Assembly: GCA_964016885.1 (NCBI GenBank)
Contig: OZ024743.1
Span: 153,388,001-153,452,000 of the forward strand
Source of the DNA: Eledone cirrhosa
Lineage: Eukaryota
Reading direction: 5' to 3'
DNA: 64,000 nt
Positions within the stretch are counted from its first letter, which is position 1; each line of letters begins with the position of its first letter. The notes under the pieces are model-generated. The model had not been told where the DNA came from. It saw only the letters and a list, made by a program, of their open reading frames with translations, and searched no databases. Positions 37,784 to 39,119 of this stretch are shown piece by piece. A program made the position numbers and the translations under genes.

Positions 37784-39119
37784 TGTGATCTCATCACAGA
37801 ATATAACAAGATACTCGGCAAAAGCGGCAGACCATTGAGAGCGCCCAGGCTCCACCGCCTCGCCAAACAAGTTCCTCCAATCGCTATCAGAGGCAACCGG
37901 GATGGACGCCCCACTCAGCTGGTTAGGCGGCCGTTTCTCTAACGACCCTGCAGAACGGGTAGGGGACTGTTTACAGTGTTTTTTTTTATATTCCTTAGAT
38001 CGCTCCTCTTCGAACTAATCTGTTTCACAGTCTTTCCGGGCAGGAAAGAAGCGATCCCAAGATTGACACGACGACACCCCGCCTTAAGAAGCTCGTCCTC
38101 CTTCTCGAGAAGGACCGAGACCTCCTGCTCGGACCAACAACCACGACCAACCCGGGTGCGGGGTTGCCCAGCTCTCTCACGAGAGGCTTCAGCAGCACGA
38201 GAGGCACGCTTCTTTCCGATCTCCTCTGCGTGTTTCGCGATCCTGCGGCGATTGGCCACCACAGGATGACGATGTCTTTCGTGCTGTGATCTTCCTGCGA
38301 CCGTACGAAAAGTACGGTTGCACTCTCCGCACCTGTGGATCAAGTCCGAGACGGCGGGTATGTCGTCCCATCTCCTGCCCGTGCATCGGCCCACGTGCAC
38401 CCGGAGCGAATGCAGGTGGCAACTTTCCCTACCGCATTTGCTGCACCTAAAAACTGCCTTTCGCTCATGACAGCGCAGCAAATGCTCCGCCCAACCAGAC
38501 GGGCCCGAGAAATGACCCGAACAGCACGAGCAAAGCAAGATTACGCTCTTACACGGAATCTCGAGACAGTCCTCCCCCGCGACCGTTTGCCCAACCTCAC
38601 AGACAGAGTCCACGGGGTCGCGCGCGAGCCACGACGGCAGTTGCTTGCCTCTCAAAACCAAAGCGTGGGTTGGGTACTCCAGAGTAAATTTATCGGGTGT
38701 ATCCCTACGGACTAGTATAGTCGGTATTTGAATCCTCCGGTGGGTCAAATCCAGTGAGCCGGCGCTCTTACGAGGAACATGGCCCGGCTCTTTGCCAGTC
38801 CTCGGAGACAGTTGCCAATCGCAGCGGGCCATTACAGAACGCTGCGACAGGCCGGAGGGACCTATCCCATTCCCTCCGGCCACTGGTTTTTCGGCCCCCA
38901 GCTGCCGTATGGACTTCAAAGTTTGTGTCATCATAATTTAGGCACCAATTAGTTCGTCTTAATGTGGCCGACCAACCGAGAATGGTAGAACCTGCCGAGT
39001 CAACCCTGACCACCGCAAAAAAAAAAAAAAAAAAAAAGGAAGCGGGACAGAGCTGCCTCTCTCGTACAGCTCAAAACCACGGACTTAAGCTCTCTTCCCA
39101 CGCCAAGGGTGGTGCCGCA
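37784..39119 (-). mobile_element. R2: R2 non-LTR retrotransposon, 5' 1.3 kb only (clade A architecture)
   Basis: Begins immediately after 28S GGGAGTAACTATGACTCTCTT (canonical R2 site, AAGG missing), same orientation as 28S; zinc-finger plus Myb ORF. Confidence 0.92.
37939..38934 (-). pseudogene. R2 protein N-terminal DNA-binding region (ZF CCHH, ZF CCHC, ZF CCHH, Myb); RT and endonuclease absent
   Basis: CSCCSGHF..WAEHLLRCH; CSKCGRE..LRVHVGRC; CGECNRTF..SQHERHRH; WSEQEVSVLL..IASFLPGKTVKQISSKR. Another frame stays open from the A9 run at about 37980 to the junction at about 37784. Confidence 0.88.

What the first reader, a model, noticed from the sequence alone, without database searches (positions are those of the whole stretch)
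37784..39119. Clade-A-type R2 retrotransposon at the canonical 28S site of a probable cephalopod
Seen: the insertion starts directly after 28S ...TATGACTCTCTT, with the terminal AAGG replaced, and is followed by a 185-nt 5'UTR and a 331-aa ORF with CCHH, CCHC and CCHH fingers plus Myb. Established: three fingers define R2 clade A, the lineage of the avian R2s used for site-specific gene insertion. Inference: the N-terminal ORF is almost undamaged, so a young, possibly active full-length family may exist in the main rDNA array of a host with unusually divergent rDNA. I cannot confirm whether this family is already described.
Basis: partly seen in the sequence, partly recalled or inferred. Interest (0 to 1): 0.75.

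Follow-up and report, generated by a model that had tools for sequence, protein, structure and literature searches.

The report
Broken front of known octopus R2
This is the first 1.3 kb of an R2 jumping gene, from a family already catalogued in the curled octopus, sitting in a lone ribosomal-DNA copy where a deletion likely removed its enzyme half, so it is a dead relic rather than a new gene-insertion tool.

Summary
Observation confirmed; novelty mostly removed. Window 39119-37785 (minus strand) is the 5' 1,335 nt of a lineage-A R2 at the 28S site: 185-nt 5'UTR with a predicted HDV-like ribozyme, then CCHH-CCHC-CCHH fingers and Myb (best solved match zebra-finch R2, E 1.5e-16). The 331-aa ORF ends at a 2-nt insertion. 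At 37785 the element joins bluntly to the far 3' end of 28S; RT, endonuclease, 3'UTR and 1,020 nt of 28S are missing. The rDNA unit is solitary. The family is published: R2-1_ECi (PMC13188248, Table S2) matches a copy in this genome that is 85% identical to the window piece. None of 13 longer family copies examined has an intact ORF, and rough contig depth gives no sign of a large hidden pool. Side results: a sister family has one intact 1,214-aa ORF at a 28S site and was not found in that table; the published copy lacks its endonuclease; 13 of 23 exact 28S target sites end a non-coding R2 parasite (SIDE). The scan noted the SIDE and the ECi link before, on other DNA of this genome. Score low.

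The parts
36559..50550 (-). Solitary rDNA unit, spacer repeats at both ends, flanked by non-rDNA
   Evidence: One 18S/5.8S/28S set in 64 kb; limits of similarity to other rDNA units; 87- and 202-nt spacer repeats
44035..46434 (-). 18S rRNA gene, expanded (2,400 nt)
   Evidence: Rfam RF01960; 97-98% to the one uninserted unit in the assembly
43336..43495 (-). 5.8S rRNA gene
   Evidence: Rfam RF00002
39120..42704 (-). 28S rRNA gene, 5' part up to the R2 site (AAGG absent)
   Evidence: Rfam RF02543; 97.4% to the uninserted unit over 40080-42704
37785..39119 (-). 5' 1,335 nt of an R2 lineage-A element (family A = R2-1_ECi family; full length about 4.5 kb)
   Evidence: 94.8-97.9% to eight genomic copies, 85.4% to the published copy; copies continue into RT
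38941..39126 (-). Predicted HDV-like ribozyme: P1 39126-39120 (28S) with 39096-39090; P2 39116-39110 with 38947-38941; P3 39109-39107 with 39099-39097; L3 39106-39100; P1.1 G-C; candidate catalytic C 38952
   Evidence: Hand-drawn fold; 95% of 381 cells paired over 15 copies against 39-53% when slid; double changes at 4 pairs; coordinates; cleavage untested
38935..39119 (-). 185-nt 5'UTR
   Evidence: Sequence
37939..38934 (-). 331-aa ORF, N-terminal DNA-binding part only; last 14 or so codons out of frame
38467..38532 (-). Zinc finger 3 (CCHH)
   Evidence: ligands invariant in 43 sequences
38383..38445 (-). Zinc finger 2 (CCHC)
38266..38331 (-). Zinc finger 1 (CCHH)
37996..38139 (-). Myb-like domain
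   Evidence: Aligned to R2Tg and PlaMe; three helices in model; no Pfam hit
37986..37990 (-). 2-nt insertion that shifts the frame; absent from the nine other copies aligned
   Evidence: a run's contig also lacks the 2 letters (table 4)
37784..37785 (-). Deletion junction R2 ...GATGAGATCAC | ATAGAGCGG... 28S, no exact microhomology
   Evidence: one occurrence in the assembly
36968..37784 (-). 3'-terminal 28S segment and downstream spacer
   Evidence: Resumes 1,020 nt after TAGCC of the uninserted unit

Best explanation
The window holds the 5' 1,335 nt of a lineage-A R2 retrotransposon of the catalogued R2-1_ECi family at the 28S target of a solitary rDNA unit, and a later deletion likely removed the rest of the element together with 1,020 nt of 28S, leaving a copy that cannot move. 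Shown: the 5' junction, the fingers and Myb, the frameshift, the blunt join, the solitary unit, the longer relatives. Inferred from established R2 biology: a full-length copy went in by target-primed reverse transcription from an RNA cut out of a 28S co-transcript by its own ribozyme. Inferred: one deletion of about 4.2 kb by blunt end joining, then neutral decay, since a unit outside the array is not homogenised or purged. Predicted: the ribozyme cuts 11 nt upstream of the target nick. Whether the copy inserted before or after the unit left the array is open.
For: R2 identity. RT of a family copy groups with 3-finger R2s including PlaMe and bird R2 (78-row branch, support 97), apart from Bombyx R2. 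Relatives run on past the window's break with the same sequence and several end at TAGCCAAATGC, so the loss is secondary. TPRT builds from the 3' end, so it cannot leave a 5'-only copy, nor remove 1,020 nt of downstream 28S (established knowledge). Junction occurs once in the assembly. All 3 private coding substitutions change the amino acid, plus a frameshift. Other dispersed copies are broken in their own ways. Published family match: against 13, 20, 44.
Against: No read evidence for the junction: the contigs of four runs show normal 28S and normal R2 on either side and no joint; contigs drop rare variants and the individuals may differ. Three coding changes are too few to prove neutral decay. 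The copy is only 0.38% privately diverged, so the family was active fairly recently. The tree is FastTree, midpoint-rooted, with no non-R2 outgroup (the ML run did not finish). Pseudoknot-free folding gives no signal for the 5' RNA (z -0.11), and two of the five covariation measures are not above shuffles (52/500 and 431/500).
Confidence: 0.88

Rival explanations
1. Family A is still active in the main rDNA array, which the assembly lacks, and the window copy is a recent stray from it.
For: Only 16 exact upstream and 23 exact downstream target matches in the assembly, all on large contigs, while run X1 shows 28S-end contigs at depth 3,400-4,100 against about 33 for many R2 pieces: most rDNA is unassembled. 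Copies are 94-98% alike; one has 875 open codons, another a single frameshift. The SIDE family with A-type ends has near-identical copies.
Against: 0 of 13 longer copies intact. Summed depth over the R2 piece in X1 is 66-315, roughly what the nine or so close assembled copies would give if 33 is one copy (the tool warns that depth is no copy number). No two A copies are over 98% alike. Near-identical SIDE copies in neighbouring units could come from duplication of the unit.
Confidence: 0.2
2. The junction is an assembly chimera and the locus really holds a full element.
For: No contig crosses the joint in four runs; rDNA and R2 are repeats that mis-assemble.
Against: The unit has unique flanks and private variants on both sides of the join; a collapse would usually join at shared sequence, and this join has none. 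Comparable deletions occur in other dispersed copies.
Confidence: 0.05
3. The fragment is kept because it makes a DNA-binding-only protein that occupies the 28S target and blocks R2 insertion.
For: All finger ligands, Myb and the predicted ribozyme are intact, the frame ends just after Myb, and the unit keeps its upstream spacer. A second copy (C2) breaks about 40 nt earlier.
Against: Single copy; 3 of 3 private coding changes are non-synonymous; a young copy is expected to look intact; no expression data.
Confidence: 0.02
4. It is a non-autonomous R2 derivative (SIDE) that is itself propagated.
For: The genome has such a family at this site.
Against: A SIDE keeps the 3'UTR and the TAGCC junction; the window copy has neither, and its junction is unique.
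Confidence: 0.01

Closest known systems
R2-1_ECi, Eledone cirrhosa (Hassan et al. 2026, PMC13188248, Table S2 row 186; seen: abstract, results parts 1-2, section 10, passages, six cephalopod rows with cells cut at about 400 letters; supplementary files 13-16 not searched)
   Same: The visible 400 aa, 400 nt and both flanks match locus L030 of this genome by eye; ORF length 995 aa agrees (against 13, 20, 44). Same 5' end, fingers and site as the window piece.
   Different: The window piece is 85.4% identical, from a younger subfamily, and is only the 5' 1.3 kb. The published copy is itself internally deleted: its ORF stops before the zinc knuckle and endonuclease.
Lineage-A R2 proteins of zebra finch (R2Tg/TaGu; PDB 9dou, 9nl3) and big-headed turtle (PlaMe; 9nl2)
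   Same: CCHH-CCHC-CCHH plus Myb; same 28S site; same branch of the RT tree.
   Different: About 35% RT identity to PlaMe; families A and B form their own branch; zebra-finch ribozyme is proposed to cut at -28 (PMC3774820, parts 1-6 of 7 read), here -11 is predicted; no mollusc protein was among those assayed in PMC13188248 section 10.
R2-1_OVu, R2-1_OSi, R2-1_ORu (Octopus species, same table)
   Same: By eye the same N-terminal layout and the same ribozyme register: AAGAGAG-C after P3, L3 starting UUG.
   Different: P3 is GCC/GGC rather than CCC/GGG; listed ORFs are 1,155-1,276 aa.
R2Dwi_SIDE of Drosophila willistoni (PMC3414825; part 1 of 6 read)
   Same: Model for the 1.15-1.38 kb non-coding inserts elsewhere in this genome: R2 ribozyme head, R2 3' end, canonical site.
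   Different: Does not describe the window copy, which has no 3' end.

Membership tests
R2 retrotransposon | 5' junction at the conserved 28S site | tested here: met
R2 retrotransposon | 3' junction to TAGCCAAATGCC | tested here: not met
   Deleted in the window; present in family copies L030, L031, L033
R2 retrotransposon | Single ORF with RT, zinc knuckle and restriction-like endonuclease | tested here: not met
   Absent from the window; present but broken in family A copies; intact in sister family B
R2 retrotransposon | Myb domain after the fingers (separates R2 from Utopia in PMC13188248) | tested here: met
   no Pfam hit
R2 retrotransposon | HDV-like ribozyme at the 5' end | tested here: inconclusive
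   Fold fits with compensatory changes; cleavage not testable
R2 lineage A | Three N-terminal fingers CCHH, CCHC, CCHH (PMC5035012, passages read) | tested here: met
R2 lineage A | RT groups with lineage-A elements | tested here: met
   Family copy P0002 in the 3-finger branch, support 97; 121 of 122 rows; no outgroup
R2 lineage A | Co-folded ZnF3:2 | not tested
   Model built but the interface was not measured
R2-1_ECi family | Over 80% nucleotide identity and the same termini (80% rule recalled) | tested here: met
   85.4% to L030 over the piece; L030 matched to the table by eye
R2 SIDE | Ribozyme head joined to the R2 3'UTR, in several copies | tested here: not met
   No 3'UTR; junction unique
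Active R2 family | At least one intact copy and near-identical insertions | tested here: inconclusive
   0 of 13 intact in the assembly; main array unassembled

The most novel reading that the evidence does not exclude
Octopods carry their own branch of lineage-A R2 whose ribozyme cuts 11 nt upstream of the target with a pyrimidine at +1 and an inverted (G-C) P1.1 pair. In this genome two sister families and a SIDE share the site: family B duplicates the downstream target at its 5' end and so rebuilds the site, letting A or the SIDE stack in front of it, and the intact, uncatalogued family-B protein is a working mollusc R2 enzyme.
Probability: 0.3. Interest if true: 0.45.

Novelty: already known. 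Interest (0 to 1): 0.22.

Why it matters
The window piece itself matters little: a dead fragment of a published family. Its value is as a pointer. People mining R2 proteins for gene insertion would want to know that the catalogued curled-octopus entry lacks its endonuclease and that an intact sister ORF exists in the same genome. The predicted -11 ribozyme register, shared by eye across four octopod species, is a cheap in vitro test of how far HDV-like ribozymes tolerate a C at +1.

Tried and rejected
Pfam scan: nothing over cut-off for the ORF. Pseudoknot-free folding: no signal. A -28 ribozyme register (28S GGCGGGA with UCCCGCU in the 5'UTR) was considered and dropped: no P3/L3 precedes it and it is not kept in other copies. 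A -13 register needs an A-C mismatch and loses P1.1. ML tree timed out; FastTree used. The 5' junction was not checked against reads. One search covered the RT and 5' half of family A, not the 3' end intended, because of locus orientation. Sequence look-up in earlier findings: nothing. Repbase and Dfam could not be searched, so 'family B not catalogued' rests on one Eledone row in Table S2, with four supplementary files unsearched.

Full report
Observation. The window has one rDNA unit on the minus strand: 18S 44035-46434, 5.8S 43336-43495, 28S from 42704. Similarity to other rDNA units runs from about 50550 to 36559 and then stops, so the unit is solitary. The 28S ends ...TATGACTCTCTT at 39120; the next base starts foreign sequence and AAGG is absent. 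A 185-nt leader precedes a 331-aa ORF with CCHH, CCHC and CCHH fingers and a Myb-like region. The best solved-structure matches are three R2 chains (E 1.5e-16 to 2.6e-15; next hit 0.051), and a predicted model finds the same three structures first. Pfam alone does not recognise it.

What was missed. The ORF does not end naturally: a 2-nt insertion just after Myb, absent from nine other aligned copies, shifts the frame, and the proper frame continues 68 codons. At 37785 the element stops and joins 28S sequence 1,020 nt downstream of the TAGCC target, measured on the one uninserted unit. The join has no exact microhomology and occurs once in the assembly. Target-primed reverse transcription starts at the 3' end, so a 5'-only copy lacking downstream 28S must be a later deletion (established knowledge plus inference), of about 3.2 kb of R2 and 1.0 kb of 28S.

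The family. A genome search gave 61 matches from 40 of 170 candidates scored. Most long matches continue past the window's break into RT. Full length is about 4.5 kb, and several copies end at TAGCCAAATGC. The window piece is 94.8-97.9% identical to eight copies and 85.4% to the C10 copy; it has 5 private substitutions in 1,329 columns, and the 3 in the coding part are all non-synonymous. Of 13 longer copies examined none has an intact ORF; these were the best-scoring ones, not all candidates. The RT of one copy falls with 3-finger R2s including PlaMe and bird elements (support 97), apart from Bombyx R2, and is sister (100) to a second family, B (FastTree, 121 of 122 rows, one short row dropped, no outgroup).

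Already catalogued. An earlier scan note pointed to PMC13188248. Its Table S2 lists six cephalopod R2s; R2-1_ECi matches locus L030 in every visible letter of ORF, element and flanks, and in ORF length (against 13, 20, 44; compared by eye, cells cut at about 400 letters). So the host is the curled octopus or very close, and the family is known. That published copy is internally deleted and stops before the zinc knuckle and endonuclease. The paper also says finger number does not define lineage, so the tree carries the lineage-A call.

Is there a hidden active pool? The assembly has 23 exact downstream and 16 exact upstream target matches, and only one is uninserted. Contigs of run X1 show 28S-end depth in the thousands against 66-315 over the R2 piece. 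So most rDNA is missing from the assembly, and family A occupies at most a few percent of units. If the recurring depth of about 33 is one copy, the R2 depth is about what the close assembled copies would give. No contig crosses the deletion joint; this neither confirms nor refutes it. No RNA holder was listed.

Ribozyme. The 5' end fits an HDV-like double pseudoknot: P1 from 28S CUCUCUU with AAGAGAG, P2 GGCACCA with UGGUGCC just before the ATG, P3 CCC/GGG, a 7-nt L3, a single G-C P1.1 pair and a CUAA linker (hand-drawn; layout recalled and from PMC3774820). Over 15 A and SIDE copies 95% of 381 cells pair, against 39-53% when slid; four pairs show double changes, including A-U to G-C in P2. 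The structure was drawn from these related sequences and two measures do not beat shuffles, so this is support, not proof; plain folding is uninformative. Family B and three Octopus entries keep the register by eye, the latter with P3 GCC/GGC. The predicted cut is at -11 with C at +1. PMC3774820 reports cuts from -9 to -36, most often -28; by my count -9 would also start with C, so this is unusual, not unprecedented.

Neighbours at the same site. Of the 23 exact downstream sites, 13 end a 1.15-1.38 kb non-coding insert with A-type head and tail, 4 end family A, 2 family B, 1 a B-like piece, 1 an unassigned end, 1 a 12-nt relic and 1 is uninserted. Fourteen measured inserts are 82-100% alike and show no tblastn match to either protein: a SIDE family, found here independently and noted earlier by the scan. 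Family B has one intact 1,214-aa ORF with fingers, YADD, zinc knuckle and PD..D, between 28S flanks. Its 5' junctions carry a TAGCCAAC-type duplicate, and A or the SIDE lies directly upstream of B at C18 and C2; re-use of a rebuilt target is my inference. Two near-full A copies have precise 3' ends outside rDNA.

Verdict. A real, correctly spotted R2 lineage-A fragment, dead at this locus, from a published family. Confidence 0.88; novelty already known; interest 0.22, mostly for the side results.

Noticed in passing
L051:1463-5104 (G000 C2, about 166.89 Mb): Intact 1,214-aa ORF of sister R2 family B between 28S flanks; about 47-54% protein identity to family A; not found in Table S2 of PMC13188248, which has one Eledone row.
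   Followed up: partly
L041-L049, L052-L056, L092: 1.15-1.38 kb non-coding R2 SIDE family at the 28S site in dispersed rDNA units on C2, C3, C4, C6, C12 and C25.
   Followed up: yes
L022-L026 (G000 C18, 15.044-15.076 Mb): Head-to-tail stack of alternating family A and B copies behind a 28S fragment, with target remnants at the joins.
   Followed up: partly
L027 (C5) and L029 (C18, 32.77 Mb): Near-full family-A copies with precise 3' ends in non-rDNA, no target-site duplication seen; 97% alike.
   Followed up: partly
L030 (C10): The copy matching published R2-1_ECi has an internal deletion of about 635 nt that removes the zinc knuckle and endonuclease.
   Followed up: yes
L091:7402-9900 (C6): A 28S target followed by a tandem array of a roughly 70-nt 28S piece; the sequence upstream looks like a diverged R2 3' end of neither family.
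   Followed up: no
L057:1199-1222 (C1): 28S site holding only about 12 foreign nucleotides in place of AAGG.
   Followed up: no
window 39257-40079: About 820 nt of low-complexity expansion inside 28S relative to the Rfam model.
   Followed up: no
window 4713-6193, 30812-31609, 26631-27347, 50560-52700: LINE remains: weak RT match, an endonuclease/exonuclease/phosphatase ORF (E 3e-6), a PHD-finger ORF (E 1e-5), and a decayed LINE-like flank with a duplicated stretch (50553-50805 and 52405-52660).
   Followed up: no
window 19775-19832: Weak tRNA-like match, probably a SINE head.
   Followed up: no
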